Source: an uncultured delta proteobacterium (lineage in GTDB: Bacteria; Myxococcota_A; Polyangia; Polyangiales; Polyangiaceae). Taken from it: a DNA stretch of 30,072 nt. Shown here piece by piece: positions 365 to 30,072 of this stretch (position 1 is its first letter; each line of letters starts with the position of its first letter). Both the position numbers and the translations under genes were made by a program. The notes below the pieces were generated by a model that saw nothing but the letters and a program-made list of their open reading frames with translations, was not told the origin of the DNA and did not search any database. The stretch covers positions 577,029-607,100 of the forward strand of contig CAVXQJ010000016.1 in assembly GCA_963763745.1 (NCBI GenBank), written 5' to 3'.

Positions 365-384
365 GCCGAACGCCAGAAGAAGGG

Positions 385-424
385 AAACGCGCTGCATCGC
401 GAGATGCGGCGCGTTTCGTTTTTT
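385..424 (+). terminator. Rho-independent terminator after lon
   Basis: GC-rich hairpin AACGCGCTGCATC (386-398) / loop GCGAG / ATGCGGCGCGTT (404-415), followed by the T-rich run tcgTTTTTT (416-424). It sits between the convergent lon and kinase genes. Confidence 0.6.
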
Positions 425-458
425 GTCACCTGTCAACGCCGCGCCGCGGCGAGCATCG

Positions 459-6727: not shown

Positions 6728-6733
6728 CGTACC

Positions 6734-8056
<1,323 letters not shown>

Positions 8057-8071
8057 CGGTCGATCATACTC

Positions 8072-9591: not shown

Positions 9592-9605
9592 CCCAGAACA
9601 CTACG

Positions 9606-10978: not shown

Positions 10979-10982
10979 TCGC

Positions 10983-11633: not shown

Positions 11634-11705
11634 GGGATGGAACCTCCACACGCTTCCTCTTCAAGTCGCGTTCCACACGAAACATGTTGAAAATAGGCGT
11701 TTGCG

Positions 11706-11765
11706 TGCGTCACGCGTGACCGCTTTCGGCGACCCCGCGCGAGGTGCATGCGTCACGGGTGACGC
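11706..11765. promoter_or_regulatory. Two 16-bp palindromes GCGTCAC-NN-GTGACGC (11706-11721, 11750-11765) in divergent intergenic region; candidate operator / enhancer sites
   Basis: The palindromes are near-perfect and perfect inverted repeats, centres 44 bp apart. A weaker third half-site pair lies at 11785-11797 (ATGACGCGTGTC). Both 16-mers are conserved exactly in the right-arm copy (16123-16138, 16162-16177) although the surrounding sequence has diverged. Confidence 0.4.
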
Positions 11766-11816
11766 ACCGCTGGTATCGTGAGCGCATGACGCGTGTCTCG
11801 TTCTGTTCCGTATTCG

Positions 11817-11832
11817 CGGCACGCCGTTCGCC
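11817..11832 (+). promoter_or_regulatory. Candidate sigma54 (-24/-12) promoter cGGCACGccgtTcGCc upstream of the Nudix gene
   Basis: Matches TGGCACG-N4-TTGC at GGCACG and the T-GC positions, with correct GG-N10-GC spacing. It lies 37 bp before the ATG at 11869 and 55-110 bp downstream of the tandem palindromes. The match is weak. Confidence 0.2.
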
Positions 11833-11868
11833 ACGCTCGAATATCCGCGCACGTGCGCGAGCTGCAAG

Positions 11869-12331
11869 ATGCAGACATGGGCGAATCCGATTCCCGTGTC
11901 GGTCGTGTTGTTGCCCGTGCGACACCGCGCGCGCGAAGGTTTGCTCGTCGTGCGACGCGGCATCGAGCGGGTCTCGGGGAGCTCGCGATCGTCGGAGGAT
12001 TCCTCGAGGAGCACGAGACGTGGGCGGAGGGCGGGGCGCGCGAGCTTCGCGAGGAGACTTCGGTCGTCGTCGACGCGAAGACGCTCGAGCCGTTCTGGTT
12101 CACGTCGACCGGCCGAAGCCGAATCGCGTTCTCTTGTTCTCGCTCGCGCCGCCTGTCGATTCGAGCGGGCTCGCGCCGCTCGCCCCGAACCACGAGACGC
12201 TCGCGCGCGGTCTCGTGTTCGGTCCGCGCGGTCTCGACGACGTCTTCGCGTTTCCTCTGCACGCAGAGGCCGCGCGGAGATTCTTCGCGTCGCGCAACGC
12301 ATCGGGGGAACATGACTTCGCCGAAATATGA
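11869..12331 (+). pseudogene. Nudix hydrolase interrupted by two 1-nt deletions (near 11968-11970 and 12098-12110)
   Basis: The N-terminus NPIPVSVVLLPV...GLLVVRRGIE reads in frame 1. The Nudix box GGFLEEHETWAEGGARELREETSV reads in frame 2. The C-terminus NRVLLFSLAPPVD...FFASR reads in frame 3. The right-arm copy reads RRGIEPGLE straight through the first break. Confidence 0.6.
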
Positions 12332-12932
12332 TCTCCTCGCGGCGTGGCACGCGCGCGCCGATGTCTTGCTCGACGAAGCGCTCGCGCTCCTCGTCGATCA
12401 CGAGGAGTTGCCTTTTGCGGACGGCGAGTGGGTGCGTCAGCTCGCGCGATTTCGATTCTCCGCGCAGCACGTCGCGCCGGTCGTCGCGCTCATCCGCAAA
12501 CGCGATCCGTTCCTGTGCGAGGCGGGTATCGTGCTCGCGGCATCGCTGCTCGAGCGGAATCGCGACGCGGCGGCGGAAGTGGACGCAGCCGTCGCATCCG
12601 TGTTCGAGGCGCCGCCCGTCAATCCGTGGATCCTCGAAGCAATCGCGTCGCTCGCATCGCGCCACGCGGAGCTCGCGCGGTTCCCGCTCACGTATCGCCG
12701 GCTCGTCGTCGAGCTCGAGGCGCGCCCATCGATCGCGATGGAGCCGCAGCGCATCATGCGCAATCGCGCGATCGCTCCGCATCGCAGGTTCATCGGAATG
12801 TTCGAGCACCACATCCTCAGCGCGCAAACGCAGACGGAGCGCGAGCGTCTCGTCCTTCCGCTCGTCGAAGCTGCGCTCGGCACGCGCGGATTCGAAGCGA
12901 CGCGCGACGCGCTCGCTCGACGCTTCGGATGA
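12312..12932 (+). CDS. Hypothetical protein (~206 aa, alpha-helical, no recognisable motifs)
   Basis: Intact ORF from ATG 12312 to TGA 12930-12932 with coding-like composition. It overlaps the Nudix 3' end by 20 bp. Confidence 0.5.
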   Translation: MTSPKYDLLAAWHARADVLLDEALALLVDHEELPFADGEWVRQLARFRFSAQHVAPVVALIRKRDPFLCEAGIVLAASLLERNRDAAAEVDAAVASVFEAPPVNPWILEAIASLASRHAELARFPLTYRRLVVELEARPSIAMEPQRIMRNRAIAPHRRFIGMFEHHILSAQTQTERERLVLPLVEAALGTRGFEATRDALARRFG

Positions 12933-12965
12933 TGGCCATCGGCGCCGGAGGCGCCAGAGCATGTG

Positions 12966-13910
12966 ACTAATGAACCGGTGGCAGCGAGATCTTGAACACG
13001 TCCCACGCAGGGCGTGTGGTTGTTCTCCGGCCGCGGGTTGGTTCCCACAGGTAGAGCGCGGCATACGTCGTGCACGGTTCCGTTCGCGACGACGACGGGC
13101 GTCACGTAGAGCTGTGGGTTTCCCGCTTCGTCCCGCACCGAGCTGAAGACGACCCAGTAGAACGTGCGGCTGCCGCTCGCGGGCGACGCTTGCGGCGCCC
13201 ACTTCGGCCAGCTGTTCGTCACGCCCGGGAGATTTTTTCCCGGTGCACGCGGGCGGATCGTTCGCGGCGAGTCGCGTCGCCGTTCCGCCGCTCGCGGGAA
13301 TGGACGAACACCTCCGCTTGCGGCTGGTTGTACATGTTCAAGTTGTGCCGATGCGATCGAACGCGAGGAGCTCATGGTCGGGCGAGTACGCCGGGGTAGT
13401 ACTCTTCGTAGTTCGCGTCGGGACGCGCCGGAGATCGGCGTCGCCGTGCCGCCCGCGCGGTTCGCGTACGGGATCGAATAGAGATCGGCCGAGCCGTTGT
13501 CGAGGCGACCGGTGACGACCGCCGTCGTCGAGCACGTAGACGATCGTGTTGCCGTGGTCACTACACGCGGCGCCGCGCCTTTGCGCGTGTCGCCGGTGCG
13601 CAGAAACGTGCCCGTCGCGGTGCCGTTCGCGACGCCGAGGAATCGACCCCAGCTCGAAATCGGAGTCGTTGAACGTCGTCACGACGACGTAGTCGTTCTG
13701 CGGCCCAATGCGCGGGCGGACGTCACGCTAATCCCGCGCGGCGCGTGCTCGACGCCGCTTTGCCCGCCGCGCCAGAGAAACGGCGGAACTTGTCCGACGG
13801 TGTTCTGCTCGATCGAGGCGATCGCGTTGTTCCAGCCGTTCGAAGTGCTGAGCTCCGCGTAGAGGCCATCGGCATGCGAGCATGCTGGCAGCCGATGCAC
13901 GATGCGCCGA
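12966..13910 (-). pseudogene. Fragment of a PD40/TolB-like beta-propeller protein, multiply frameshifted and truncated at the palindrome centre
   Basis: Protein-like segments sit in three minus-strand frames: ...PAYSPDHELLAFDRIGTT...; DLYSIPYANRAGGTATPI; LPGVTNSWPKWAPQASPASGSRTFYWVVFSSVRDEAGNPQLYVTPVVVANGTVHD. The frame runs across the centre as GAIVYWTTEGRIFAQ. Confidence 0.4.
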
Positions 13911-14019
13911 ACTCCTGCACTTGCGACGGCACGAGCACCGGCACGACGCTTATTCGTCGCCAAAATGGGCAAATCCCTTGAGCGAAGATCCGCCCTTCAG
14001 TCGTCCAGTAGACGATCGC
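13911..14019. other. Unique ~110-bp centre (spacer) of the palindrome
   Basis: Flanked by 13890-13910 (CCGATGCACGATGCGCCG) and its reverse complement at 14020-14045. The spacer itself is not self-complementary. Confidence 0.6.
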
Positions 14020-14029
14020 GCCGGGCGCA

Positions 14030-14910
14030 TCGTGCATCGGCTGCCACACGTCGACGCCCGATGGCCTCTACGCGGAGCTCAGCACTTCGAACGGCTGGAA
14101 CAACGCAATCGCCTCGGAATCGAGCAGAACACCGTCGGACAAGTTCCGCCGTTTCTCGGCGCGGCGGGCAAAGCGGCGCTCGAGCACACGCGCCAGCGCA
14201 GGGAGGTCGCGTGAGACCCCGCGTCGCCCTGGCCGCGAACAACTGCATCGTCGTGCAGCGACGTTCCAACGACTCCGATTTGAGCTGGGTCAATCTCGGC
14301 GTCGCGAACAGCACGCGGAGCCTGCGCACCGGCGACACGCGCAAAGGCGCGGCGCCGACGTGGAGCCACAACAGCAACACAAATGCGTACGTCTGCCGAC
14401 GACGGCGGTCGTGGCCGGGTCCGCTCGACAACGGCTCGGCCAAAGAATGTCTATTGGAAAAGTGCGTACGCGAACCGCGCGGCAGCACGGCGACGCCGAG
14501 ATCTCCACGCGCGTCCGACGCGAAGCCAAAGAGCCGCGGTCTCGCCCGACAATCAGCTGGTCAGCATTCGAATCGCATCGGCAAACGACTGAACATGTAC
14601 AACCAGCCGCAAGCGGAGGTGTTCGCAGTCTGCAATTTCCGCGAGAGCGGCGGAACGGCGACACGACTGGCCGACGAAGATCCGCCCGCGTGCGCCCGGG
14701 AAAAATCTCCGGGCGTGACGAACAGCTGGGCCGAAGTGGGCGCCGCAAGCGTGCCACCCGCCGCGGCAGCCGCACGTTACCTACTGGTCGTCTTTCAGCT
14801 CGGTGAGGCTACACGTGACACCCGGGTCATTGCCGGTCCGCGAACGGAACCGTATCGCGCTACTGTGGAACTAACCCGCGGCGGAGGACAAAAACCACAC
14901 ACCACGTAGG
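14030..14910 (+). pseudogene. Decayed copy of the PD40-like fragment
   Basis: Contains SGGTATRLADEDPPACAREKSPGVTNSW matching the left-arm GGTATPI...LPGVTNSWPKW. The 3' end is diverged. Confidence 0.35.
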
Positions 14911-14949
14911 ACGTGTTAGAATCCCACAGCCACCAGTTGGTGACCCCAC

Positions 14950-15560
14950 ATGTATCACACGCTCCAGCACCGGAGTGGGCCATGTCCGAAGCGTCGAGCA
15001 AGCGCGTCCGCGCGTCCGCTTGCGATCCACACATCCGAGGCGCCACTTCGACAAGCAGGAAGGACGAGGAGACGCTCGCGCTCCGTCTGCGTTTGCGCGC
15101 TGAGGATGGTGCTCGAAGATCTCAAATAAACATGCGATGCGGAGCAATCGCGCGATTGCGCATGATGCGCGCTCGGCTCCATCGCAATCGATAGGGCACC
15201 CTCAACTCGACGACGAGCCACAAAATTCGCCGGCAAGCTTCCGCGGTGAGATGCGACAACGCGAATGTCTTCAAGAGGATCCACGAAAATAGACAGGCAG
15301 CGCCCGTCGAACACGGATGCGACGGCTGCGTCCCAGTCTCCACCGCCTCCGCAGCGATGCCGCGAGCACGATCCCCACCGCCGGCGTCGCGGTAAGCCGG
15401 AGACGACCAGGGGTGAGCTGCGCGGAGAATGGAAAGGACATCGCGAGGCTGACATTGCACCACATACAAAGGCAACTCCTCGTGAGAATGGAGCAAGAGA
15501 GGCAAGCGCCTCTTCGTCGAGCAAGACATCAGCACGCGCCGTTTGCCACGCCGCGAGGAG
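14950..15560 (-). pseudogene. Decayed copy of hypothetical protein 12312-12932
   Basis: ORF 14955..15767 has VDLLAAWQTARADVLLDEEALASL and ...ILSAQTQTERERL matching the left-arm protein. It reads continuously from the Nudix C-terminal copy. Confidence 0.4.
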
Positions 15561-16010
15561 ATCGACCATTCGGGCGAAGTTCCCCGATGCGTTGCGCGAC
15601 GCGAAGAATCTCCAGCGGCCTCTGCACCGTGCAGAGGGAAACGCGAAGGACACATCGAGAGAACCGCGCGGACCGAACACGAGACCGCGCGCGACACTCT
15701 CGTGAGTTTCAGGGCGAGCAGCGCGGGGCCGGCTCCGAAATCGACAGGCGGCGCGAGCGAGAAGCAACGCGATTCGGCTTCGGCGCGGTCAACATGAACC
15801 AGAAGCACGGCTCGAGCGTCTTCGCGTCGACGACGACCGATCCGCGAAGCTCGCGCGCCCGCCGCCACGTCTCGTGCTCCTCGAGGAATCCTCCGACGAT
15901 GGCAAGCTTCGAGACCCGGCTCGATGCCGCGTCGGCGCGCGACAAGCAAACCTTCCGCGCGCCGTGTGCGCACGGGCAACAAGACAACCGACGCGGGAAT
16001 CGGATTCGCA
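15540..16010 (-). pseudogene. Decayed copy of Nudix hydrolase
   Basis: NPIPASVVLLPVRTRRAEGLLVARRRGIEPGLE in ORF 15122..16036 and KLAIVGGFLEEHETW...VVVDAKTLEP in ORF 15709..16074, in different frames. Confidence 0.45.
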
Positions 16011-16122
16011 TGTCTGCATCTTGCAGCTCGCGACACGTGCGCGGATACTCAAGCGTGGCGAACAGCATGCGCAAATCGAACAGAACGAGTCACGCGTCCA
16101 TGCGCTCGCGATTGCCGGCGGT

Positions 16123-16177
16123 GCGTCACCCGTGACGCATGCACGCAGGGGTCGCCGAAAGCGGTCACGCGTGACGC
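16123..16177. promoter_or_regulatory. Mirror copy of the two 16-bp palindromic sites, each conserved exactly
   Basis: GCGTCACCCGTGACGC at 16123-16138 and CGGTCACGCGTGACGC at 16162-16177 are exact reverse complements of 11750-11765 and 11706-11721. The spacing between them is 5 bp shorter than in the left arm. Confidence 0.35.
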
Positions 16178-16229
16178 ACGCGAACGCGACTTGGAAGAAG
16201 AAAAGTGTGGTAAGTTGCCGCATCCAGTG

Positions 16230-16835
16230 CGCCACTGGCAATTTTTTCGGGGCCGTTTGTCGATTCTCTTCACGCAGCTTCGCGTGCAGCTCCGCGAGCC
16301 AAGGCGAGACGCGGGCAAGGCGGGCAACTCACAGGCGAGCACCGCACAGCCCGCGCAAGTGAGGCAGTTGGAACCGTCGTGTCGACGGCGGCGCGGTGGG
16401 AAGGCGCATGGAAGGTACACGGGCGGTTGCGCCGAGCTCAAAATCTCTGCAAGCGCGCGTGTTCTGGCGGAGGAACCCGGCGACCCGTCACCGCGCAGTT
16501 CGCAGGAGCATTTCTCGCGCGCATTGGTACGCAGTTGTGACGGGAAGGCGAACACTGCAACATCCCCCTGCCCGCCGGATGTCGGTGCAGAGCGACATGG
16601 CCGCGCACGCGACCACCGTCGTGTGCGGACGACGGGAGCAGTGGATGCAAGTGCGAACGTGACCACCACGGCTCGCGACGGAAGGCTCGACAACCTACAC
16701 GGTGCAAGGCGATTTTAGCGGGCAAAATTAGGAAAACGAGTAGCTCTCGTGCAGGGGAAACGGCATGAACTACAGGCACACGAACGGCTCTTTGCGCACC
16801 GAGGGCCGGTTCGTTCACGCTGTGCGAAGGATGAC
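16230..16835 (+). pseudogene. Decayed copy of lipoprotein 10983-11633
   Basis: The fragment VQSDMAAHATTVVCGR in ORF 16396..16662 matches AAVQSDMAAGTTTASCADD. The reading frame is broken. Confidence 0.4.
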
Positions 16836-16837
16836 AA

Positions 16838-17270
16838 GTGCGCGCGAGGGCGGAAAGCAAAATGCGTAGCAAGAGTGTCAGACGGAGCAGGCGGTTGCTG
16901 GTCTCGTGTCTCTACGACTGGGAGAGGCGTGGGCACGAAGAAAACAAAATGCACGCCAGGCGAAGCGCAAGCGCCCGTTGCTGGCCATGTGCGGGGGCGA
17001 CATCTGCAACGGACGGCACAGTCGGGCGGGTGCAGCTTGGCCTGCTCGTCGGGGCGACATGTGCAACAGGAAGTGTGCGCGGGCGGCGGGATGCGAACTA
17101 CAGTGCCCCACCACTCAAAGCCTCCGCTTGCAACCTCTCTTGCCGACCAAGGCGGTACTCAGTGCGAATGTGCGGCGGGCACCATGTGCAACGTGTCTTG
17201 CAGCGGAAGACGGAATGCAACAACACATACAGGGCACTTCCGTGCACGGGGCGGCAGATCGTAGTTGACG
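16838..17270 (+). pseudogene. Decayed copy of the Cys-repeat lipoprotein
   Basis: MRAR...LLVSCLYDW signal/lipobox at 16838. GGDICNG..., SGGCSLACSSG and GGTQCECAAGTMCNVSCSG are scattered over three frames. Confidence 0.5.
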
Positions 17271-17289
17271 CACACAACCCTGGGCATGC

Positions 17290-18207
17290 GCCAGGTCGCG
17301 ATGGCGCTGGCGCACGCGGGCCCACGCCAACAAACAAGGGATCCACCGCCTCGACACACGCACAGCATACGACGAGGCTAGCGCGAATACGCGCGGCGGA
17401 GCTCAGCCAGCCGCATCCTACGCGCGCGCGGACGCGATCGCGCCGAGCCCGTGGCGCTTACAAGCAGCACTAGACACGTGCGCGAAGGCCGACGACGCGG
17501 TGTGCGCGCGGGAGAGCGCGATCGGCGAAACGGGTTCGAGCATCCGTACGCGCCGCGGGAGGGAAGGCTCCGCGCATCGCGCGGGGCCACGGTGAGGGAA
17601 AGCAGCGTGTCCGCGGCGGTGCAGGCGACGATGACACTCAACATGCGGACGCGCGCGCGCTCGGGTAGGCATCCGAATCACGTTTTCAATCGATGGCCGA
17701 AAGCGAGGCGCGCGCGCCGTGAGCGCTCCAGCAGGCGGACGCGGAGGTCGCGATCAAGCCATCGCCGCCGCCGCAAACACCACCGACAAATCTACACGCA
17801 AACCGACGCAGCGTGACGCCGCCACCGCCGCTCGTGAGGAGCGAAGTCGGCGCCCAGCGAGCGACCCATCCGCCTGTGCGCGCGCGCGCGAAGTCCGGGC
17901 CACCTCGGCGCGACGGGTGGGGCGCTCGGCACGGCAAGGCGATACCTGCTCGCCGAGTGACATCAACACACCGTTAGGTTCACTCTGGCGGGATCCGTGC
18001 GCAGCAGTTTGAACGACGGCCTCGTGCAACTCGCTCGCGAGCTCGGCGCGACGATGGCCACGGGCGAAGTTGTCGGCGGTTCTCAAGGAATCGCAGCGGC
18101 CATGTCGACGATGGGTCCGCACGGATTCTGCCGCGCGATGGCACGCGACAGGTCGAGGTGGCCCGGGCACCGTGGCGCTGCAAACATTTTGGAGAATGTC
18201 CTTCTAA
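17290..18207 (+). pseudogene. Decayed copy of membrane protein 9606-10559
   Basis: 17431-17520 encodes ADAIAPSPWRLQAALDTCAKADDAV. ORF 17997..18212 has ATMATGEVVGGSQGIAAAMST matching ATMATGDALLGVSIAAAV. Confidence 0.45.
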
Positions 18208-18221
18208 CGTAGTGTTCTGGG

Positions 18222-19490
18222 ATGGCGACGGAGCGGCGAAAGCGACGCCCCAGCTACGACATCTTGTCGAGCTCAGCATCAGGCAGGGATGGCCACCGTT
18301 TCTGCGCGCGCGCGGCTCGATGGGCCAGGAAGTGGGAAAAAAAACCCCAGATCCCGCACCTGCTCGATAATCCCACCGCAAGGGACTCGTGGCGGAGCTA
18401 CGGCTCACATCGCTCCATTCATCACGTGAACGTCGTGGACGGTGCATGTACGTCAGCATCCAGCAAAGGCGGCGCGAAGAAATCCAGCTCGTGATGCGAC
18501 TACATCGAGGGCGCGTCGCTCGGCGAGCTGCTCCGTGCTCCGCCAGCAAGGCGAAGCGAAGGTGCCCGGCGCGTTGGTGGAACCTCACATCTTGCTCAAA
18601 AGATTCCACGTGCAAGCTGAGGCAACAGCCACCGCGCGGCATGCTCAAAGGCAAGCTCGCCGTTACATGTCGGCCCGAGTTTGAGGGCACCACATCAATC
18701 ACCGCGTCGACGTCTTCGCGCTCGCGTCGTCGGTTGGGAGGCGCTCGCAGATGGGGTTCTTCGCGGGGCGAGCGAGGTCGAGGAGCGGCACAGCGGATGC
18801 CGCGCGAGGCGCTGCGCGTCCGCGCAGCACCGACGACGTGTTCGTGACGGCGCTCGACAATGCGGAGCAACGCTTACGACGACGCGCGCGTTCGCAGCGG
18901 CGCTCGAGTCCGTGCGCGGCGCGCGCGGGGGCTCTGCACGTCGGCACGCGGAATACGAGGGAATCCATCCCCAAACGCGTGGCGCAGGCTCAAAGGCGCG
19001 CCGCGCAGGTGCGCGAGCGGCTCGCGTGGTTGGAGCCGGATTTTTAACTTGATGGGCGCGGAGCCACCAACTATCCGAGTCAAGCATGCCAGTCGAGCGC
19101 CGCCGCGCCGGCCGCGGTGGCGACGACGGGACGCACAAAGTCGCCGGTCTAATACCCGAACGTCGCCGCGCCCGCCGCGCGCCGCGGTTTATGGAAGCGC
19201 AAGTTCGGACGCGCTCGCGCCGGCGGATCCCCGTCGCGCGCGCGACTGCTCACGGTGGTCGTCGTCGTCGCGGGCATCGCGCTCCTCCACGAGTGCGAGC
19301 GCGGTCGTGTTCCAGCAACGCACCGTGAGGGGTCCCCGCGTCGGCAGAGAGCCACTTCGTGAATCACCAACCACAGCAATCGCATCACTCACGTTCACGG
19401 CGCACGCAGATGGCGGCGCAACAGGCCTCGATGACGACGCGAGACCGCGAGCTCGACGGGCGCGCGCATCCGCCGAATCCTTATCTTTAA
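18222..19490 (+). pseudogene. Decayed copy of Ser/Thr kinase 8072-9591
   Basis: MATERRK start at 18222. Kinase fragments in several frames. ~250 bp are missing, mostly from the low-complexity tail. It ends ...PNPYL-TAA at 19488-19490. Confidence 0.5.
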
Positions 19491-19505
19491 AGTATGATCG
19501 AGCCG

Positions 19506-20855
<1,350 letters not shown>

Positions 20856-20861
20856 ACGATG

Positions 20862-23800
20862 CGCGCATTCCCAATGACGCTTCATTGGCGGCACACCGCC
20901 GCGCGCATTTGCATCGCGCCACGCAACTCGACCGACGTGAAGGACAACCGCGGCCGCTGGCGTACGGCGATTGTGGAGCAGCATCAAGTACTGGTGTAGA
21001 AGCGCTGGCTTCGCGCAGACAATCCGGCAATCGCCGCGGTGCTCCGCGCGCGTCGTCAAAGATCAAACGCCCCGACCACGCTGACCGATAACGAGCTCGC
21101 AGGGCGCAGCAATGGCGAGCAGGTGCAAGTGCAGCTACAAAGCCTTCGGGACCGCGCGCGTAGGCGCCGCTTCTCATCACGCCTCGCTTCAAGAACGTGG
21201 ACACGGTGATCAAACCAGCCAAGAAACACCCCAAAGCGCGACATGCTCCGCGTGTCTTGGCGTGGGAGGCGCGACGCCTCGGTGCGCGCGAAGTGTCGCG
21301 AGCTCGCGGGGGCACGTGGGACACCCGCGACGTCGAAGTCCACGAGCACCTCGCCTACGCGTTCTTCAACAACGATGCGTGGCGCGCGCAGGCCGCCGCG
21401 GAGAGAATCAACCAAGCGCCGAAGTTCAACTCGAGGGCAGCTCGCGATCGGGTACGACAAGGACGCGATGCGCACGCTCCGTCGCGCGCGCGACGAAGAG
21501 CGACGCAATCGCGTAGCCCGAGGAATCGTACCGTCGCTCGGCGAGGACGCACTACCCATCTTGCTCTCGCTCGCGCCCGCCGCGACGGGCCACGCTCGCC
21601 GTTTGTCGCGCGGGGGCGTGGTGGGCACCAAAACAACGAAACGTCCGCGAAGCACCTCGCGAACGAAATCTCGAATCCACCGACACGGCAAGATCGTCGG
21701 CGACTACTTCACACGAACAAGAACTCGCGGCCAGCAGTGCTTCCCGCCGCGAGCGAGGGCGCATCGCGGAAAACACGAATTTCGACATGTTCCGGCGATC
21801 AGACGAGCGCCGACGCCGGCGAGACCCGGTCGCGCTCAAGGACAATCCCGGGGCGCTGCGCCAGTGCTGCGCGACGCGCCGTGTAAAAGGAGGCGCTCGC
21901 GCTTCCGAAGCTCGGGCTCGATGTCACCACCGTGGTCATCACACTCCGAGATCTCGGAAGAGAAAAGAAGAGGGGGACACCGAACTCGATAGGGCAGCGC
22001 CAGCTGCAGAGCCGTACGTGAACACAACCTAAGCTGAACGAGTTCCATAGGCGCGCAAGGCGCGAAAAGGCTCGGTGTACTCGTTCCCAGTTCGCCGAGC
22101 ACCGCCATACCAATCGAGACGGTGCTTGCCTTCTCAACGAATCGCCGGACGCTGGTCCCACACTAATCGACGTGCTGATGCTCGGCGCGGGCAGCGAGCG
22201 CGCGCTCCCCGGCCTGCACCAGGGGAGCTCGCGCCGGGTACCTCAAACGCGAGTTACGCGATGCGCATCGACGACGCGGGCATCGCGCTCGGCCTCGCTG
22301 ACAGCGGTAGGCTCGCGCGGACAACACACGTAGTAGTGGTTCGAAGCGCAGGGGGGGGCCCTCGTTCAAGCCCAGGGCTCTACCAGCACGCGTGCGTGCT
22401 CGCCCTCCGCAAGCTCGCGCGCCTCGGTCATCGCGAGGACGGTTCTCTCGTTCGTGCCGACGGAGCACGCGGCGAAAATCGCGGAGCTCCTCAATCGCGA
22501 TACGCATCTCAAAGCGCAGGTTCCCTCGCAAATGCGTGAACTTCGGGCAAGCGCACGGGCGTCAAGCACGCGCAAAAGCTCATGTTTCACCGAGAGAGCA
22601 GACGAGCAGGTGATGGAGATGCCTCTGTTCTCACCAAAAATCGAACCATTACACAGCCTCGAGGACTTGAAAGCTGCATGCAATCCAGAACTCGGCTCAG
22701 CGAGGAGATGGTGTGTGGGGGAGGCTCTCGCCGCGTTCGCGGACAGCACCAAGGCGAGATCGCGACAAGATGCACTCGAGTGAATGCGTTGGTCACTCGT
22801 TCATTTCGCGAACGACCTCGTGATTCGTCGCCTCACGCCCGCGCTCAAGCGCGCGACAAATTCATAGCGTCCTCGAGCACCTCGCGATTCGCAGCATGGA
22901 AACCGCATCAATGGAGGGGATCCGCGACCGCGCACGAACGCGGCGACGCTCCACACTCGATGCGCAACGTCGCGACCGGCCTCTCGAAGTACCAGTCAAC
23001 GCGATCGTCGGAGACGCTCCTCCCAACAACCGCGCTCGCCGAAGAGGGCACGACGGGGGGCTCAGCGCGCGCACGCTACACTCCGGGTGCTCGCGGCGAG
23101 TCTATTTCTCGGCGAAAAGAGGCTCACTGCGAGAGCTACCGCGCGCGCAATCGTCCATTGATCCAATCGCGGAGACCCGCCTCGCGCGCGAGCGGTGGGG
23201 GGGGGGACAAGCTTCGATCCGCGCGGGGCCAAGTCTTCGCGCTCGCGGTCTCGTCGATGCGATGCGCAGCGCTCGTCGCGTTCCCGCGGGGCGGGTCCTC
23301 GCGGGTTGGGCGAATCACCCGCTCGGCAAGCATCAAGCGCGCGCGATAGTCTGTGGCCATCAAGCGCGACGGCGCCCAGCTGCGTAGTGCGTCGCGGAAG
23401 ACAGCTCCACTCGCGTGGCATCAAAGCTCAGCAGCTCACGCTCGGCGACACCCGTAGGTCACGAGTTCACACTTGGGCGAGTTCCGAACACGAAGACGGC
23501 TCCGAACCGTGGGCGCGCACGTTGGGGGCCTACGGGCTCATTCAACCCGTCAGGGCAGGCTCGGCCCGCGCACGCCGCTCCCAATCGCGGCGGACGACGA
23601 CGCGAAGCAAGGAGATCCGGCGCGAGCTCTCGCAGCCGATTTTCTACTCCGCGTTCCACACCGTGCTCAGCGAGCAAGGCGTGAGCAACTGGGAGTGATT
23701 GAGCCGCGAGCAAGGCGGGGGACAAATCAAGGGGCACGAAGTGGATGAAGCGCCAAGACGATGTGCACTGGCTTTGGTCTCCAAGTCGTGAAGCCGCTCG

Positions 23801-23869
23801 CGGAGCTACACCCCGTCGAGCGCGCCGAAGCACTCTATTTGCTTCGCTGGTGCTCGAAAAACAACGTGA
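20862..23869 (+). pseudogene. Decayed copy of the 1000-aa protein
   Basis: ATGCGCGCATTCCCAATGACG at 20862 (MRAFPMTLHW). C-terminal VVKPLAELHPVERAEALYLLR at 23761-23848. Many frame changes and G-runs of 6-10 nt. Confidence 0.55.
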
Positions 23870-24770
23870 CGGATTTCTTATTCCGTGAGCTCCGGGAGAA
23901 TAAGACTACTCTGCGACCGGCAGGTCCGTGCGCGGCAGGTGCACAAACACACGTGCCTGCGGGGCGCGGGCGCGGGTAGTAGATGGCCGTCTCGATGCTC
24001 GCGTCCGCGAGGCGAGAGCAGACGCATCGCGCGCGTTCGAGCGCACGATGTATTGGTTGAAGACGTGCGCGCCCGAGCACCGCTTCGGCGGCTTGCTCGC
24101 GCCGGTAGGGGGGGCGAGGAGCTCGTCGAAGTGCGTCGCGTTCGCGCGCCTCTTGTTCGTGATTTCGTCCATGCAACAGAGGTTCTTCACGCGAAGGAGC
24201 GCGGGCTTGCCGCATCCATCAGGAAGTTGCCGCCGATGCACACGTGATGGTTCTTTTCGCGACGGCGCCGTGCACGCGGAACAATTCTGGCGAATCGCCG
24301 GCGAGAGCTCCGTCGTCGTCCGTCGCGGAGCGAGGGCCCGCGTCGCCGAGCGCCGGCCGATCCTGTTGCAACAGGAAAGAACGAGAAAGCGAGACGCATC
24401 CAGCGACGCGTTGCGCGGCGCGCCAATCGATTGCGCAGCATCCTCGACGAGCGCGATGCCGTGCTCGCGCGCGAGGACGCCGCTGGATGGCCTCGAGGTG
24501 CACGACTTGCCCCGACGGATACAGCAACAAAGTAGGATGGCCATTGGTTTCCGTGTAATCCTGCGCGCCGCGTCATTGTCGAGACCGAAACAGCACGGCC
24601 TCCACGTCCGCGAAGACCGGCGTCGGCGCCCCGACGATGCCGCCGTGGCCGTCGCGATGAACCTATACGCGGGGCAGAATGGCTTCATTGCAGTTTCCAG
24701 CCGATGCCAAGCGCGCGACGCGAGCAAGGTGCCCGACGACACGCCGAGTGCGCAAGACGACGCGCGCACA
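23835..24770 (-). pseudogene. Decayed copy of DegT aminotransferase
   Basis: FCPAYRFIATATAAS, HGIALVEDAAQSIGAP and RLADASIETAIYYPRP...ERSK-stop at 23835. It keeps the ~34-bp convergent overlap with the neighbouring copy. Confidence 0.55.
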
Positions 24771-25350
24771 CTCCGCGCTCAAACACTTCCGACCTTTCGC
24801 CGAGGATGTACTTCCCCGCTCTGGAGCACGCGACGAAACGCGGCCTCAAGCTCTCGGTCCCATCGCACGTCGCAGCACCATGAAGTGGAATTGCATTACC
24901 GCTTCTTCGGCGAGTACGTGAGCTTGCCCTCTGTAGGGCACGTCATCACGCCGTCCACGGTCGGCGATGGCCATGCTTGCTATCCAACCGGGCGCCTGTA
25001 GCGACCAAAGTGGGGACGTCGGCGCGAGACGATCCGCGCCCGCCGGCAATAAAGGCGTGACAAAGCCGGTGCAGCGAATGGCACACAAATACGTCCGTTC
25101 ACACACCGAGGTGGGCTGGCGCCACACCGAATGATATTGGGCTTGCAGATCTCCAAGCGCGGGTTGCGCGTTTCGTGACACACATCATCCTCCCCGACGA
25201 TGGTGCCCGTGTAGACCGACACCATATTTATGAATCTTAGCACAGAATGGTTGACATGGTTCGACGCCCGAGCACGTCCGAACTTCCGCGCCGCTGCACG
25301 TGGCGGAGTTGCCAAATGTCATCCTCGCCAATCGTACCATCGTCCTCGTG
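24770..25350 (-). pseudogene. Decayed copy of hexapeptide acetyltransferase
   Basis: ORF 24980..25315 has NMVSVYTGTIVGEDDV... matching NVSVYTGTTVEDDVF. Confidence 0.45.
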
Positions 25351-26920
25351 GATCCGCCGTCCGTGGCGTACCATCACAAATGGTGAAGTGGCACCGGCTT
25401 CAGACGCTGCGAATCCGCCCGTTCGGCACAGGCGGGGATAGGCCGGTAGTGTTCACGAGTTCGACACGATGCTCCAGCGTCTCGTTGCGCTCCGAGGACA
25501 TAGTGCGGCGCGACAAGAACAAAACCCAAAGCCGTCGCGCGCCTCTTCTCGGAAGCGCGCTGCGGCCGCGGCTGGCGTAACCCGAACGCGGTAGGGCACG
25601 CTCCTCGACGCCGGCGACATCGACGGCGTCCAGGCTTACCGCGATGAATGCATCAATAGCCAACGCTACGGCGCTCAGTTCGCGCGAGCAGCTGCAGTTG
25701 AAGCCAAGCTCCGAGTGGCTCCAAACAGCTCGCGAGCTGCGCACGCCAAGAGCATCGTGCACCGCGACGTCAAAGTCCGAGAACGTAATGGTCGCGAAGG
25801 ACGACGGCCAATCCGCGTGCTCGATTTCAGGAATAGCGGCATCGTCGCGGTGTCGACACGTCGGCGCCGAACATGCGGACGGTTGTGAGACACTGCGCAC
25901 GGCGGTTCGTCGGAACGAGCGCGTACATGAGGCGCCGGAGCAGCGCGCCGGCGCAAAGTTTCCTGCTGTGGGAGTGCGTGGCGGTGGGCGCGTGCCACAA
26001 TGGTCCCAGCACCCGGATATTCGCTGCTCCACGCGTTCTTGCGCGAGGTGCCGGTCGAGGTGAGCTTGACAATCGCGGCGCGCGATGTCGAATCGACCCC
26101 GCGCAGCGCCACGCCGACATGGCCGAGAGTCCGCGCGCGCGCTCGGCGCCACGACGGGCTCGCTTGCAATCCTCCCGAGCCAATCCGGGCGCGAAGAACA
26201 TCACGACGACCGGCCGGGCACGGTCCACGCGACGCCGCAGCAAACCTCCACCGGCAATGTTGGTCGGCTCCGCCGATCCATGGTCCACCACGGCGGCCTT
26301 CCGCGGTTGGCGCGACGCGGTCTTCTTCACCGCGCATTCGCGCGCCATCACGGCCCACGAGTGCTCCGAGCGTAATATACAGATACACCCATCACATTAC
26401 TGCAGCTCCGAGGCGCAAGCGCTCTTCCGCACGCGGTCGCAGAGCCCGCTCCGCAAGCAAGCGCGCCGACTGCCGCGACGACGTCACCGCGGGCGAGCTC
26501 GGGGTGCTTGTGTCTTCCGGTCTCCGGCAGCACGGCGGAGCCTGCTGGTCCGTCTCTCTGCAAGTGCGCCAATTCGTCCGGTGTCTCGCTCTGCAACACC
26601 GTGGACGAACGACGACTCTCCGACGTGCGCAGACGAGGGTGAATACGGCAAGACGCGAAGTTTCCGTGTGAGACGCTACACGGGCGACACGACGCGCGCC
26701 CGTAAGCTCATCAACACGCACGAGCCGAACGGGCACGCTCTCCTACAGCCTCTGCCCTGCACGGCCGGCGACGCGTTCCTCCACATGGAGGGCGCGAGCT
26801 GGGGCTTCCGCGCCGACCGCAGCCCGGCGCAAGGCACGGTCAACAACCTCCTACGCATGTCGCGACGGAAACGCGCGCGCGCGCGCCGAGGTAGACCCGT
26901 CGCGGGCGGAGGTCGGACGA
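25330..26920 (+). pseudogene. Decayed copy of receptor Ser/Thr kinase 459-2069
   Basis: NVMVAKDDGQ and VGTSAYM kinase fragments. The Cys-rich tail TPWTNDDSPTCADE...YTGDTTRARKLINTHEPNG...LPCTAGDAFLHMEGAS has frameshifts. Confidence 0.55.
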
Positions 26921-26951
26921 TGCTCGCCGCGGCGGGGCGTTGACAGGTGAC

Positions 26952-26991
26952 AAAAAACAAAACGCGCAGCATCTCGCAATGCGGCGCGTTT
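26952..26991 (-). terminator. Mirror copy of the lon terminator hairpin (6 substitutions in 80 bp relative to 361-440)
   Basis: AAACGCGCAGCATCTCGCAATGCGGCGCGTTT preceded by AAAAAAC on the top strand. It retains a stem but has one disrupted pair. Confidence 0.4.
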
Positions 26992-27011
26992 CCTTTCTTC
27001 TGGCGTTCGGC

Positions 27012-29400
27012 TCAGTTCGCCGGCGCGGGCGCAGCGGCTTCGCTGGGCTTCCGCTTGGGGCTTTTCTTCAAGCGCTGAGAGAGCACCTGCTCCATCTTCA
27101 GATTGGTGGCGAGAGCGAATTCGAGATCGCTTTCACCTCGGCGGGCACCTCGTCGAGGTCCGCCTTGTTTTCCGAAGATCCGGAACGATGACGCGCTTGA
27201 TGCCCGCAGCGGTGTGCCGCGAGGACCTTCTCCTTCAAGCCGCCAATCAGCTCCGGCCGCGCAGCCTCACCAGTCATCAGTGAGGTAGGCACTAGTGGTC
27301 AAGGTGAGCGCGGTGAATTTTTCGGAAGGGCCATATTTCGGCACCGCGCCCGGCGGGGATGTGGATGTGGATGTCACGCTTGTGGAAGTCCTTGGCGATG
27401 CCAAACTCTCCGGTCCGCGCGGGACCGTAGCTGAGGGCCGCTTGCGCAGACTGCTTCATAACATCACCGAGCTGACCCGTGAGCTGCAGCTTGCCGGAGC
27501 CGGGCCCCGCGTGCTCCCAGTCGCTTGCCCGAATAAAGGAATCTCTCCCGCCGACGCTCGTCCGTGCGCTCCGCGACTTCCGACAAGCGTTGCGCGCCGA
27601 GCACCTGCTCTTCGGTTTCGAATCTTGCATAGGCTGAGGTTCGGAGGAGCCCTGCGCGACACCGCGGATGACGCTCGCCACTTGGCGCTCGAGCGTACGA
27701 ACGCCCGGCTTCAGCGGCATCCTCTGATCCGATTGAGTGTGCATGTGGAGAGCGCCCTTGTCCGTGATGTCGAGCTGCTCTTTGGAGATGCCAGTGCTCC
27801 TCGAGCTGCTTGGATGAGGTGGCGCTTGGCGATGCGCAACTTTCTGCCACTTTTCCGGTGACACCGGGATCTCGAGGAATCTCCAGTGCGTCGCGGAGCG
27901 GACGGGAAGTAGGATCCCCAGCGATGTTGGCCGTCGCGAACAAACATCACGTCATAGGGACGCTGCGAAGGAGTAGTGAATCCGCGAAGCTCAAAGTCTG
28001 CTCGGTGGAGCAGCTTCGAGCAAATGCGGCCGCGGGGTCCTGGCGGAAAAGCAATTCAAGACCTCGTCGAAGAGCATGAAGACCAGGTAGTGGTTCCGAC
28101 CTTCTTCATGCCTTGGAATCTGCTCCGGGCAGCGCGCCAACGAACGTACTGCAGCGGCATAGTTCACGATCCACGCCTGGTCCGTGAACACCGCCAAGGC
28201 GATGCAGTCGAATTTGCGACCAAGCGAGCGCGCAATCAATCGACCAAGACGACGTCTTACCAGGGGCGAGCCGATGAGACAGAGGATCGGACCCTTCTTG
28301 TCCTTCTTCTACGAGCTTGCGAACGGCGCACGAGGATGCGCTTAGCAGCCATGGTGAAATTCATCCGAGCTCCGCAATCTGGATTATGCAGGGGTCTGCT
28401 GAGTTCACGGCAAATCGTAGAGATCCAATCAAAAATCTAATGCAGACAACGGTGTACTCCGCCGACACTCCATGTTGCGGAGGCGCTTGAGTTGCTTCTT
28501 GGCGGGGACTCCTGCCGGCCTCTTGGGAGGCTCGCCTTGGCGATTTGAAATCCTCGAGAACCATGAAGGTCCACCTTGAGATACACCATCATCCTCAGCC
28601 AACTATCTTTAATCGCCTTGAGCTGTTGAGCAGAACGTACTCGCGCTGGTTCTTGCCCATCTCTTCTTTGAGAATCTGCAAGTTGATGCGGTCGCGCATC
28701 TTGGCTGCCCGAGCTGCCGCACGTGAGAAGACGCAGCACCTTGCGGATGCGCTCTTTTCCAGCATCAACCGTCTGCGAGCAGCGCCCCACCTTCTCGTCG
28801 ACCGGCGCGTCGAGGTTCGCCGCGGACGGAATCCGCGACACACCAGGCGCTTGGAATACAATCAATAAGCGAGCCCTTCGCGCGGCAGCTCGGGCATGAG
28901 CTGGATAACTGCTTCGCGATGTCGCGGTACCGCATCGTCGCCGACGGGTTCGAGCTTGATCTTTCACCTTCATGTACGGCGCGCCTTCGTCCGCATCGCT
29001 GACTGGATGCGCGTGAGGCAAGATGAGCGAGTAGATTTCCACTCGAATACTTAAGCGCCTTCGGCACGGCGCACCGCGCACCTGATAAATGGTCTTCCAC
29101 CCGCGATAGTCGAGTCGACGGACCTGCGCGAAGAATCGCAATGATGGGCGACGTCAGATTGTCAACGTCTTCAACAAGCGCGACCCATTTCTCCGCGGCC
29201 CCGTCGAAGCGGGCGACCCGCGCCCGGAAAGAGCACGGCATTGCGAATCGCACAGCTTCATCGCCGAACACGACCGGTTCGGCAAGTGCGTCACAGCCTG
29301 CGGGCGGCGGGGGAGCTTTCCTTCTCGTCGTCGGTGGGACCTTATAGTCTATCCAATGAACTAACTCGGAAGCAGACACAAGGAAGGTCCACACAGCCAC
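27012..29400 (-). pseudogene. Decayed Lon protease gene (mirror of lon; extends beyond what the left arm shows)
   Basis: Minus-strand fragments run from C- to N-terminus. [14 protein letters not shown]...[13 protein letters not shown] (27098-27292). GKLQLTGQLGDVMKQSAQAALSY and GVRTLERQVASVIRG (27292-27864). IARSLGRKF...LVFMLFDEV of the AAA+ region (27991-28239). QREYVLL (28595-28861). GC falls from ~60% to ~50% across it. Confidence 0.55.
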
Positions 29401-30072
29401 CTCTTTTCTGGGTGCGGCGGAGCAGCATTAGAACGCGAAAACCTGCGTTGAAGTAGACATTTCTCAGCACCGAAGCCAAAGTTAGCGAAGAACTGCCTGA
29501 CTGGATGCGCAGTTCACAAGAGAGCAGACGCCGCGGAAGAAGAAGAGCTTCCCTTGGATTTGCCACGCTGAAGTGCACGCCCCTCTGCGGGCCGTCAAAG
29601 ATCAGTTGATGCCAAATCGTCGAGGCGCCGCGCGACGCGGCCGTTGCGAAACGGAAACGCCAAGTGGTCACCGCGCGGAGTGACCGTTTCGATCCATGTA
29701 GTATGATTGCGGCCGATGTCGAAGCCTTCCGCACGAAGCCGAGGACCAAGCCGTCGTGTCTGCCGGTGAAGTGGTAGCCAAACTCGAGCATCGCAGGGTG
29801 CGAATACGTTTGCGTTCCCGCCGACGGATATGCCAGTCCACACGCCGAACGAGAGCTCGCCCTTGCACGTAGAAAAGGACCACGCGTCGGAGTCTTCGAA
29901 CGCGCGCGCGGGAGACGCCGTGGAATGCGGCGCCCAAGTGCAAGGGCAGCGCTGAAGGCGGCGAGCTCGAACGCATGAGTCGGTACCTATACCGCGTCCG
30001 GTGGTATACGTGACGCATAGAAGCTGGGAATCAACTTTGGGACGACGCAGAGGCCACTGCATCAACAAATGT

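What the first reader, a model, noticed from the sequence alone, without database searches (positions are those of the whole stretch)
14020..30072. Right-arm decay is graded along the coordinate and indel-dominated: looks more like a technical or constructed artefact than natural pseudogenisation
Arm-to-arm differences are rich in single-base indels, often at homopolymers. Examples are AAAAAA/AAAAA and CCC/CC at 13201-13260 vs 14683-14745, and a GGG-to-G10 change at 23187-23196. Natural divergence is usually substitution-dominated. New long homopolymers occur only in the right arm: A8 at 18336-18343, G8 at 22357-22364, G10 at 23187-23196 and G7 near 24112. GC declines progressively within a single gene, the lon copy: ~60% at 27300-27900, ~55% at 28000-28500 and ~50% at 28500-29500, against ~70% in the left arm. 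The left arm itself shows frameshift density rising towards the centre: none in 1-8056, one in the kinase at ~9320, two in Nudix, three or more in the PD40 fragment. An error rate that increases monotonically with position is what a fold-back (template then complement) chimeric long read, an uncorrected low-quality contig end, or a synthetic mutated duplicate would produce. Conserved cores such as the EBP AAA+ region differ mostly by substitutions, so a genuine old paralogous duplication overlaid with errors cannot be excluded.
Basis: partly seen in the sequence, partly recalled or inferred. Interest (0 to 1): 0.7.

Follow-up and report, generated by a model that had tools for sequence, protein, structure and literature searches.

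The report
Fold-back assembly artefact, noisy mirror copy
The right half of this window is an error-ridden reverse-complement copy of the left half. It is most likely a fold-back chimeric nanopore read built into a public metagenome contig, not a decaying natural gene duplication.

Summary
The window is a giant palindrome. Left arm 1-13908 and a unique 115-nt spacer are followed by a right arm, 14024-27355, that mirrors the left. The right arm runs on to 30072 as a copy of the lon gene lying left of the window.

The arms are 79% identical, with 1,149 substitutions and 893 indel events (1,909 bases). Differences fall evenly on all codon positions. On the right arm's own strand G>A (8.7% per G) and A>G (4.5% per A) dominate. 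That is the published read-strand error signature of nanopore sequencing.

The left arm is good sequence, and one of its proteins recurs exactly in an independent assembly. Right-arm ORFs, one spanning the centre, sit as singletons on the same public 607,100-nt contig. So the palindrome is in the deposit and was not built for this scan.

Several details of the finding fail:
- Decay is not monotonic.
- Indels are not enriched at homopolymers.
- GC falls to 56-62%, not 50%.

One patch is different. The right-arm copy of a sigma-54 activator gene is a cleaner, consensus-like, ortholog-like sequence. I infer that reads from related organisms were recruited there.

Verdict: assembly artefact (about 0.85), of low biological interest.

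The parts
1..13908 (.). Left arm, the reference copy. Genes in order:
- Lon C-terminus, 11-364 (+)
- Ser/Thr kinase, 459-2105 (-)
- DegT aminotransferase, about 2670-3758 (+)
- DUF4132, 3725-6727 (-)
- FHA-sigma54 EBP, 6734-8056 (-)
- Ser/Thr kinase, 8072-9591 (-), with one frameshift
- conserved hypotheticals, 9609-10601 (-), 10620-10916 (+) and 10986-11633 (-)
- Nudix, about 11800-12300 (+), with two frameshifts
- hypothetical, 12312-12932 (+)
- a beta-propeller-like gene, about 12990-13900 (-), with at least 5 frame switches
   Evidence: Pfam hits. Ortholog tblastn. Frame translations. The EBP is 100% identical to P0001 on a 607,100-nt NCBI/ENA contig. The exact DUF4132 protein also occurs on an independent Logan contig from ERR11594405.
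13909..14023 (.). Unique 115-nt spacer (loop) between the arms. It has lower GC than its surroundings. No significant match to ONT or PacBio adapter sequences.
   Evidence: The adapter sequences were recalled from memory. Best matches had p of about 0.05-0.1 against random windows.
14024..27355 (.). Right arm: a noisy reverse complement of left arm 13908-1. It is 79% identical, with about 52-77 indel events per kb. Every gene is shattered by frameshifts.
   Evidence: ORF products from 13902-14909, 15924-16718, 18860-21091 and 21243-21992 are singletons on the same 607,100-nt public contig.
27356..30072 (-). Continuation of the right arm past the mirror of window position 1. It is a degraded copy of the rest of lon (Lon residues about 120-690 map to about 27349-29050) plus upstream sequence. 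GC is 0.56-0.62 and CpG o/e is 1.16-1.38.
   Evidence: Frameshift-aware alignment to Lon proteins gives 21-27 frameshifts and 41-44% identity, collinear. PDB Lon match E=7.5e-5. Composition.
19506..20852 (+). Anomalous patch: the right-arm copy of the EBP gene.
- It behaves as an independent, consensus-like ortholog rather than a noisy copy of the left gene.
- It has almost no G>A excess.
- It has about 5-7 times fewer private indels.
- GC3 is 0.95, against 0.87 in the left copy.
18337..18344 (+). A8 run replacing complex sequence of the left arm.
22351..22358 (+). G8 run replacing complex sequence of the left arm.
23197..23206 (+). G10 run. The left arm has GAGCTCGTCCCA at this place.
24108..24114 (+). 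G7 run replacing GCGGGCGCG-type sequence of the left arm.
9317..9336 (-). One-base frameshift in the left-arm kinase relative to four orthologs. The right arm shares it.

Best explanation
The right arm is not biology. It is a fold-back (palindromic) chimeric long read, most likely nanopore, that an assembler incorporated into a 607-kb metagenome contig.

Proposed sequence of events:
1. The read ran along the genome to about 13908.
2. It crossed a 115-nt loop.
3. It continued on the complementary strand, back over the same locus.

Genuine reads polish the accurate left arm. The false mirror copy is supported by essentially one strand of one (or very few) reads, so it stays at raw-read accuracy. 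That accuracy is made worse because the second arm of an inverted duplicate translocates too fast and loses bases.

What is shown:
- The palindrome.
- The indel-rich, codon-blind, strand-specific G>A/A>G error spectrum.
- The good quality and independent reproduction of the left arm.
- The presence of the junction in the public contig.

What is inferred:
- The sequencing platform.
- Single-read support for the right arm.
- That the window lies near a weakly covered contig end.
- That the cleaner, consensus-like EBP patch arose because reads from related, unassembled Polyangia-like organisms aligned to this gene and outvoted the single noisy read. It is the only stretch alignable at nucleotide level between these genomes.
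For: - Arms 1-13908 and 14024-27355 are collinear reverse complements: 79% identity, 893 indel events and 1,149 substitutions.
- Substitutions are spread evenly over codon positions: DUF4132 101:74:94, DegT 21:23:27, kinase 21:22:29.
- Outside the EBP, at sites where the arms differ, the ortholog in L083 agrees with the left arm 424 times and with the right arm 101 times. So the right arm carries the derived changes.
- In the mirrored Lon C-terminus, all 12 right-arm differences go away from the family majority.
- On the right arm's + strand G>A is 8.7% per G and A>G 4.5% per A. All other classes are 0.9-3.4%.
- G2A and A2G are reported as the recurrent read-strand substitution signature of nanopore data (R9, R10, all basecaller models) and not of PacBio. 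C2T/G2A errors are strand-specific.
- Missing bases exceed extra bases (1,241 vs 668), with multi-base skips up to 49 nt.
- Spealman et al. describe missed bases and low quality once the junction of an inverted duplicate has passed the pore. Here the first 200 nt after the loop are about 90% identical, then identity drops to about 78%.
- Fold-back artefact reads occur on ONT and PacBio, mostly without adapter between the arms, and can tangle assemblies.
- Right-arm ORF products are singletons on the same 607,100-nt contig. A left-arm protein recurs exactly in an independent assembly.
- Loci of four relatives have no inverted repeat of 60 nt or more.
- The EBP patch is consensus-like. Its mean identity to distant homologs is 0.674, against 0.60-0.64 for natural close relatives. 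It carries the family-majority residue at 61% of differing sites, against 30-37% in controls. It has 16 different nearest neighbours in 21 windows, and its best database hit is only 74%.
- The patch boundaries match the limits of nucleotide alignability with relatives.
Against: - No reads, qualities or coverage are available, so single-read support and the platform are inferred.
- No adapter was found in the spacer.
- Indels are not enriched at homopolymers. That is unlike polished nanopore consensus errors, though it is compatible with raw low-quality, fast-translocation calls.
- A difference of about 20% is higher than typical modern raw-read error.
- The foreign-read explanation of the EBP patch is untested. 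It does not explain why the equally conserved lon copy is not also cleaned up.
- The kinase frameshift shared by both arms shows that at least one 'error' is either real or systematic.
- The G>A changes are concentrated at CpG (272 of 341). I could not match that context to a documented nanopore error motif.
Confidence: 0.85

Rival explanations
1. The inverted duplication is real in the genome, but the right arm's decay is technical. Nanopore reads of a true palindrome have a degraded second arm, and the assembly fixed that degraded version.
For: Spealman et al. show this behaviour for genuine inverted duplications. The unique 115-nt spacer without adapter fits a template-switch or fold-back duplication in vivo. 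The junction is in the deposited contig.
Against: - With a true palindrome, reads of the opposite orientation traverse the right arm first and would polish it as well as the left arm. The extreme asymmetry (0-6 frameshifts/kb on the left against 52-77 indel events/kb on the right) implies that only one read strand supports the right arm.
- The strand-specific G>A/A>G spectrum says the same.
- Relatives show no such repeat.
Confidence: 0.07
2. The right arm comes from a second, closely related low-coverage population with the same gene order. It was misjoined head-to-head to the main population's contig. Part of the divergence, notably the EBP, would be real allelic difference.
For: The right-arm EBP has natural-looking divergence: third-position and transversion-rich, conservative at protein level, star phylogeny with orthologs. 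Outside the EBP there is a small excess of sites where the right arm agrees with the outgroup (101, against a few dozen expected by chance).
Against: - The EBP copy has no consistent nearest relative and is more consensus-like than any natural sequence tested.
- A single real allele would carry the same noise as its flanks. Yet G>A and indels drop sharply exactly within the gene.
- The two arms meet at one exact symmetric point with 98-100% complementary ends. A fold-back explains that more simply than a chance head-to-head join.
Confidence: 0.05
3. A genuine, old inverted segmental duplication whose right copy is decaying naturally by pseudogenisation. This might involve strand-biased cytosine deamination at CpG, with the EBP copy having been kept longer or converted from another paralogue.
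For: Collinear arms of at least 16 kb. C>T at (T)CpG accounts for 272 of 341 such changes. The EBP copy shows selection-like divergence.
Against: - The indel to substitution ratio is about 1:1, with one indel event every 13-19 nt. From general knowledge, bacterial pseudogenes show several-fold to tens-fold more substitutions than indels.
- Indels are placed at random with respect to repeats.
- The spectrum is 5-fold strand-asymmetric and includes A>G, which deamination does not explain.
- Divergence 'ages' are incompatible between genes. The kinase and its flanks look recent, while the EBP split looks as deep as the split from other genera.
- Poly-purine blocks replace complex sequence.
Confidence: 0.03
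4. A synthetic or constructed mutated duplicate, either a benchmark decoy or a generated sequence.
For: Indels are random with respect to sequence context. The EBP patch is consensus-like, as a generative model might produce.
Against: Four right-arm ORF products, one spanning the centre, are in the public protein collection on the same 607,100-nt NCBI/ENA contig as the left-arm EBP. I suspected a regime change exactly at the mirror of window position 1, but checked it and it does not exist.
Confidence: 0.01

Closest known systems
Fold-back (palindromic) chimeric long-read artefacts (Breakinator study, PMC12870357; Pacasus for amplified DNA, bioRxiv 10.1101/173872)
   Same: One molecule reads forward and then back over the same locus. 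The junction has little or no foreign sequence and no detectable adapter. Such reads are known to tangle assemblies.
   Different: Here the artefact is seen only as its fossil in a deposited contig, not in reads. The arm is unusually long (at least 16 kb). The second arm carries about 20% error.
Degraded nanopore base-calling in the second arm of inverted duplicates (Spealman, Burrell and Gresham 2020, PMC7229812)
   Same: Normal quality holds up to and just past the junction. After that come missed bases, miscalls and low accuracy in the arm that passes second. Deletions exceed insertions.
   Different: That work concerned true duplications in yeast and human reads. Translocation speed and phred scores cannot be examined here.
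Nanopore read-strand G>A / A>G substitution bias and strand-specific methylation-linked errors (bioRxiv 10.64898/2026.01.14.699587; PMC11610603)
   Same: G>A is the most enriched class and A>G the second, on one strand only.
   Different: Published rates are 0.1-0.7% per base. Here they are 4.5-8.7%. The CpG concentration seen here was not matched to a documented motif.
Natural inverted segmental duplications with a pseudogenised copy; repeat-induced point mutation (RIP) in fungi
   Same: Two collinear inverted copies, one intact and one broken. C>T transitions are concentrated in a dinucleotide context.
   Different: Natural decay is substitution-dominated and strand-symmetric. RIP makes transitions only and no indels, and is unknown in bacteria. 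Here indels equal substitutions, and the spectrum is one-stranded and includes A>G.

Membership tests
Fold-back chimeric long-read assembly artefact | Two arms are reverse complements about a single centre, collinear over their whole length | tested here: met
   Arms 1-13908 and 14024-27355, blastn E=0. The arm ends are 98-100% complementary.
Fold-back chimeric long-read assembly artefact | One arm has consensus quality and the other has read-level error, including errors specific to one strand | tested here: met
   Left arm: 0 frameshifts in 1-8056. Right arm: 52-77 indel events/kb. G>A is 8.7% against C>T 1.6% on the right arm's + strand.
Fold-back chimeric long-read assembly artefact | Differences are blind to coding constraint | tested here: met
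   Codon-position counts are near uniform outside the EBP. Lon C-terminus changes all go away from conserved residues.
Fold-back chimeric long-read assembly artefact | The junction is supported only by chimeric read(s); ordinary reads run through into different sequence | not testable with these tools
   No reads or coverage are available, and the source contig is masked in the look-up.
Fold-back chimeric long-read assembly artefact | The false arm is not reproduced in independent accurate data | tested here: inconclusive
   Right-arm ORF products are singletons on one contig. The left-arm DUF4132 protein recurs in a Logan assembly. However, the left-arm EBP is also a singleton.
Natural inverted duplication with pseudogenised copy | Substitution-dominated, strand-symmetric divergence | tested here: not met
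   893 indel events against 1,149 substitutions. Five-fold G>A versus C>T asymmetry.
Natural inverted duplication with pseudogenised copy | A single duplication age across the segment | tested here: not met
   The EBP shows a star phylogeny with orthologs from other organisms. In the flanks the right arm is sister to the left.
Natural inverted duplication with pseudogenised copy | Presence of the duplication in related genomes | tested here: not met
   No inverted repeat of 60 nt or more in L081-L084. Only four loci were examined, and synteny beyond the cassette is weak.
RIP-like hypermutation of repeats | Only C>T/G>A transitions and no indels | tested here: not met
   About 60 indel events/kb. 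A>G, C>G and other classes are present.
Synthetic or constructed duplicate | The sequence is absent from public records | tested here: not met
   Four right-arm ORF products are on the public 607,100-nt contig.

The most novel reading that the evidence does not exclude
The palindrome is real. An uncultured Polyangia-like myxobacterium would carry an inverted duplication of at least 16 kb whose second copy was inactivated by a strand-specific, (T)CpG-targeted cytosine-deamination process. That would be a bacterial analogue of fungal RIP. The indels would be sequencing noise laid on top.
Probability: 0.02. Interest if true: 0.85.

Novelty: not a real feature. Interest (0 to 1): 0.12.

Why it matters
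The biological interest is small. The practical interest is larger.

Consequences of the artefact in a public MAG contig:
- At least 16 kb of false sequence.
- Dozens of spurious singleton 'proteins' that now sit in protein databases. Four were found.
- A false gene-dosage and pseudogene signal.
- A chimeric, consensus-like EBP 'gene' that could mislead phylogenies.

The diagnostic combination used here can flag such fold-backs in deposited long-read assemblies without access to reads:
- arm-to-arm indel to substitution ratio;
- codon-blind differences;
- a one-strand G>A/A>G spectrum;
- an outgroup polarity test.

Tried and rejected
- Adapter search in the 115-nt spacer (ONT Y-adapter top and bottom, rapid adapter, SMRTbell, older ONT adapters, all recalled from memory). 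No significant match.
- The idea that the right arm 'knows' only the window, as expected for a generated sequence, because a 365-aa single-frame Lon HSP starts exactly at the mirror of position 1. Rejected: the HSP runs through out-of-frame stretches, and a frameshift-aware alignment finds 21-27 frameshifts.
- The idea that the lon copy is also a foreign-consensus patch. Rejected for the part that has a partner. Untestable for the rest.
- Search for a real donor of the right-arm EBP. None was closer than 74%.
- Fetching the source contig, or an independent contig across the centre. The look-ups returned nothing.
- Fetching the organism's full-length Lon. It returned only fragments, so generic Lon representatives were used instead.
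- Pfam on the PD40-like fragments. No hit.
- tRNA and Rfam scans. Nothing found.

Full report
WHAT IS THERE

The window is one large palindrome. blastn aligns 118-9033 to 27265-18636 and 9203-13908 to 18600-14024 on the opposite strand, at 77-80% identity with more than 650 gap openings. The repeat finder shows the same thing as a ladder of 142 inverted pairs.

The arms end at 13908 and 14024. A 115-nt spacer lies between them with no internal symmetry. The right arm is longer than the part of the left arm held in the window. From 27356 to 30072 it mirrors sequence that lies to the left of position 1, namely the rest of the lon gene.

The organism is a high-GC myxobacterium of the Polyangia type, judged from the nearest homologs.

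QUANTIFYING THE DIFFERENCES

A global alignment of the left arm with the reverse complement of the right arm gives these totals:

| Class | Count |
|---|---|
| Matches | 11,572 |
| Substitutions | 1,149 |
| Bases missing from the right arm | 1,241, in 439 events |
| Extra bases in the right arm | 668, in 454 events |
| Identity | 79% |

- There are almost as many indel events as substitutions. Gap lengths fall off geometrically, with skips of up to 49 nt.
- Differences fall almost equally on the three codon positions of intact left-arm genes: DUF4132 101:74:94, DegT 21:23:27, kinase 21:22:29.
- This is not how bacterial paralogues or pseudogenes diverge. That statement rests on general knowledge; I ran no survey.

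WHAT IN THE FINDING DOES NOT HOLD

- **Homopolymer context.** Indels are not concentrated at homopolymers. One-base deletions are adjacent to an identical base in 29% of cases (32% expected) and insertions in 54% (52% expected). The deletion rate is flat with run length.
- **Monotonic decay.**
  - The first 200 nt beyond the spacer are about 90% identical, then identity drops to about 78%.
  - Measured as the fraction of left-arm protein residues recoverable from the right arm with a frameshift-aware alignment, quality is lowest next to the centre: 0.66-0.68 at 15-18 kb.
  - It rises to 0.75-0.83 at 21-27.3 kb. Indel events fall from 77/kb to 52/kb.
  - It is poor again in the lon copy, estimated at 0.6-0.7 after calibrating against natural Lon-Lon identities.
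- **GC in the lon copy.** It is 0.56-0.62, not 0.50, and not progressive.
- **Long homopolymers.** They are real, occur only in the right arm, and are all purines on the + strand. They replace complex sequence rather than extend existing runs.

WHICH ARM IS DERIVED

Orthologous loci from four related metagenomic organisms share a cassette of [~220 aa][94 aa][~320 aa][Ser/Thr kinase][FHA-sigma54 activator].

I used them as outgroups over left-arm positions 8100-11600. At sites where the arms differ, the L083 sequence agrees with the left arm 424 times and with the right arm 101 times. Sites where both arms agree against the outgroup are numerous. So the right arm is a sister copy of the left arm that carries nearly all the private changes.

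In the mirrored Lon C-terminus, all 12 amino-acid differences replace a conserved family residue.

The left arm itself is good:
- There are no frameshifts in 1-8056 or in 9600-11650.
- Its EBP is 100% identical to a database protein on a 607,100-nt NCBI/ENA contig.
- Its 1000-aa DUF4132 protein recurs exactly, with the same neighbours, on an independent Logan contig from run ERR11594405.

Left-arm quality does fall near the centre:
- one frameshift in the kinase at about 9327;
- two in Nudix;
- at least five frame switches in 12990-13900.

The kinase frameshift is shared by the right arm. It is therefore either real or a systematic error.

THE ERROR SIGNATURE

The spectrum is strongly one-stranded. 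Written on the right arm's own + strand and excluding the EBP gene, the rates are:

| Class | Rate |
|---|---|
| G>A | 8.7% per G (334 events) |
| A>G | 4.5% per A |
| C>T | 1.6% |
| T>C | 1.8% |
| All other classes | 0.9-3.4% |

- Inserted bases are purine-rich on the same strand.
- A recent preprint reports that G2A, followed by A2G, is the recurrent read-strand substitution signature of nanopore data. It holds across R9 and R10 chemistries and all basecaller models, and is absent from PacBio.
- An earlier paper shows that C2T/G2A errors in nanopore reads are strand-specific.
- A double-stranded mutational process in a cell would be close to symmetric.
- The changes are concentrated at CpG: 272 of 341, with a 5' T preference in left-arm orientation. 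I could not tie this to a documented motif, and it remains unexplained in detail.

WHY THE SECOND ARM IS SO BAD

Spealman et al. showed what happens once the junction of an inverted duplicate has passed the pore. The strand re-anneals on the far side, translocation speeds up, and bases are missed or miscalled.

That fits three features here:
- the excess of missing bases;
- the multi-base skips;
- the roughly 200 nt of decent sequence just after the loop.

Fold-back artefact reads are documented on both long-read platforms. They usually have no adapter between the arms and are named as a cause of assembly tangles. I found no adapter in the spacer.

NOT A CONSTRUCT

I looked up the exact products of ten right-arm ORFs. 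Four of them are in the public collection: 13902-14909 (which spans the centre), 15924-16718, 18860-21091 and 21243-21992. The palindrome is therefore part of the deposited assembly.

I briefly suspected that the right arm changes character exactly at the mirror of window position 1, which would have pointed to a generated sequence. A frameshift-aware alignment shows the lon copy has 21-27 frameshifts, like the rest of the arm. That idea is rejected.

THE ONE REAL ANOMALY

The right-arm copy of the EBP gene (19506-20852) follows different rules.

- **Sharp boundaries.** Within the limits of the gene, G>A almost disappears while other substitutions rise to 9-22 per 100 nt. Private indels fall to about 11/kb.
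- **Natural-looking substitutions.** The substitution pattern looks natural: third-position rich and transversion rich.
- **Outgroup test.** Outgroups agree with the right arm as often as with the left: L082 gives 110 vs 130, L083 gives 89 vs 136.
- **Equidistance.** Pairwise identities are all about 0.80 (L-R 0.799, L-O82 0.806, R-O82 0.802).
- **A plausible protein.** Corrected for frame, it encodes a full-length activator that is 72.5% identical to the left copy.
- **Not a natural lineage either.**
  - Its best hit among 5.8 billion proteins is only 74%, with a flat 65-71% to more than 100 homologs.
  - Its mean identity to distant family members (0.674) exceeds that of every natural close relative (0.60-0.64).
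  - At sites where it differs from the left copy it carries the family-majority residue in 61% of cases, against 30-37% for natural controls.
  - Its nearest neighbour changes in almost every 40-residue window: 16 different proteins in 21 windows.
  - Its GC3 is 0.95, against 0.87 for the left copy.
- **Alignability.** The patch coincides with the only stretch where this genome and its relatives can be aligned at nucleotide level.

My inference, which is untested, is that reads from related, unassembled community members aligned here. They outvoted the lone noisy read during consensus or polishing, giving a cleaner but chimeric consensus. A weakness of this account is that the lon copy, which is equally conserved, shows no such clean-up.

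RIVALS

- **A true palindrome read badly.** Reads of the opposite orientation would polish the right arm. The one-sided quality and one-stranded spectrum argue against this.
- **A head-to-head misjoin with a related low-coverage population.** This would explain part of the EBP divergence. It does not explain the EBP copy's consensus-like nature, the drop in noise inside the gene, or the exact symmetric junction.
- **Natural pseudogenisation, with or without a deaminase.** It fails on four counts: the indel load, the strand asymmetry including A>G, incompatible divergence ages between neighbouring genes, and poly-purine blocks replacing complex sequence.

No relative shows an inverted repeat.

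VERDICT

This is an assembly artefact in a public long-read metagenome contig.
- Several of its supporting observations are not.
- Its 'synthetic' option is excluded.

Biological interest is low. The case is useful mainly as a warning about false sequence and spurious singleton proteins in databases, and as a recipe for spotting such artefacts from sequence alone.

Noticed in passing
window 19506-20852: The right-arm copy of the FHA-sigma54 activator gene is a cleaner, consensus-like, GC3-rich (0.95) ortholog-like sequence. It has no consistent nearest relative, and its boundaries sit at the gene ends. It probably reflects reads from other community members recruited onto a false duplicate. 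It is a chimeric 'gene' that now exists in public data.
   Followed up: yes
window 9317-9336 and mirror about 18480-18500: A one-base frameshift in the Ser/Thr kinase, relative to four orthologs, is shared by both arms. It is therefore either a genuine pseudogene or programmed shift in the organism, or a reproducible systematic sequencing error.
   Followed up: partly
window 6734-11633; L081 6566-11344; L083 3658-8438; L084 6388-11341; L082 2-3615: A conserved five-gene cassette recurs in related Polyangia-like metagenomic genomes: [~220 aa hypothetical][94 aa, opposite strand][~320 aa hypothetical][Ser/Thr kinase][FHA-sigma54 enhancer-binding protein]. The three small proteins have no Pfam family.
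   Followed up: partly
proteins P0176, P0177, P0202, P0204, P0240: Several Lon fragments of only 116-194 aa sit on ENA contigs of 180-390 kb. This suggests that frameshift-broken genes are common in this class of long-read assemblies.
   Followed up: no
window 13909-14023: The spacer has lower GC than its surroundings and contains an A-rich stretch (CCAAAATGGGCAAATCCC). It gives only weak, non-significant similarity to nanopore adapter sequence. Whether it is native sequence or junk called at the turn-around is open.
   Followed up: partly
window 14024-27355, + strand: The G>A changes are concentrated at CpG: 272 of 341, with rates of 10% at CpG against 2.6-5% in other contexts. There is also a flanking-base preference, so CGA becomes CAA. 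This could mark CpG-type cytosine methylation in this organism or a basecaller k-mer bias. It was not resolved.
   Followed up: partly
window 3725-6727: A 1000-aa DUF4132 protein lies directly downstream of the activator gene. It recurs exactly in an independent Logan assembly of run ERR11594405. It is absent from the syntenic position in the four relatives examined.
   Followed up: no
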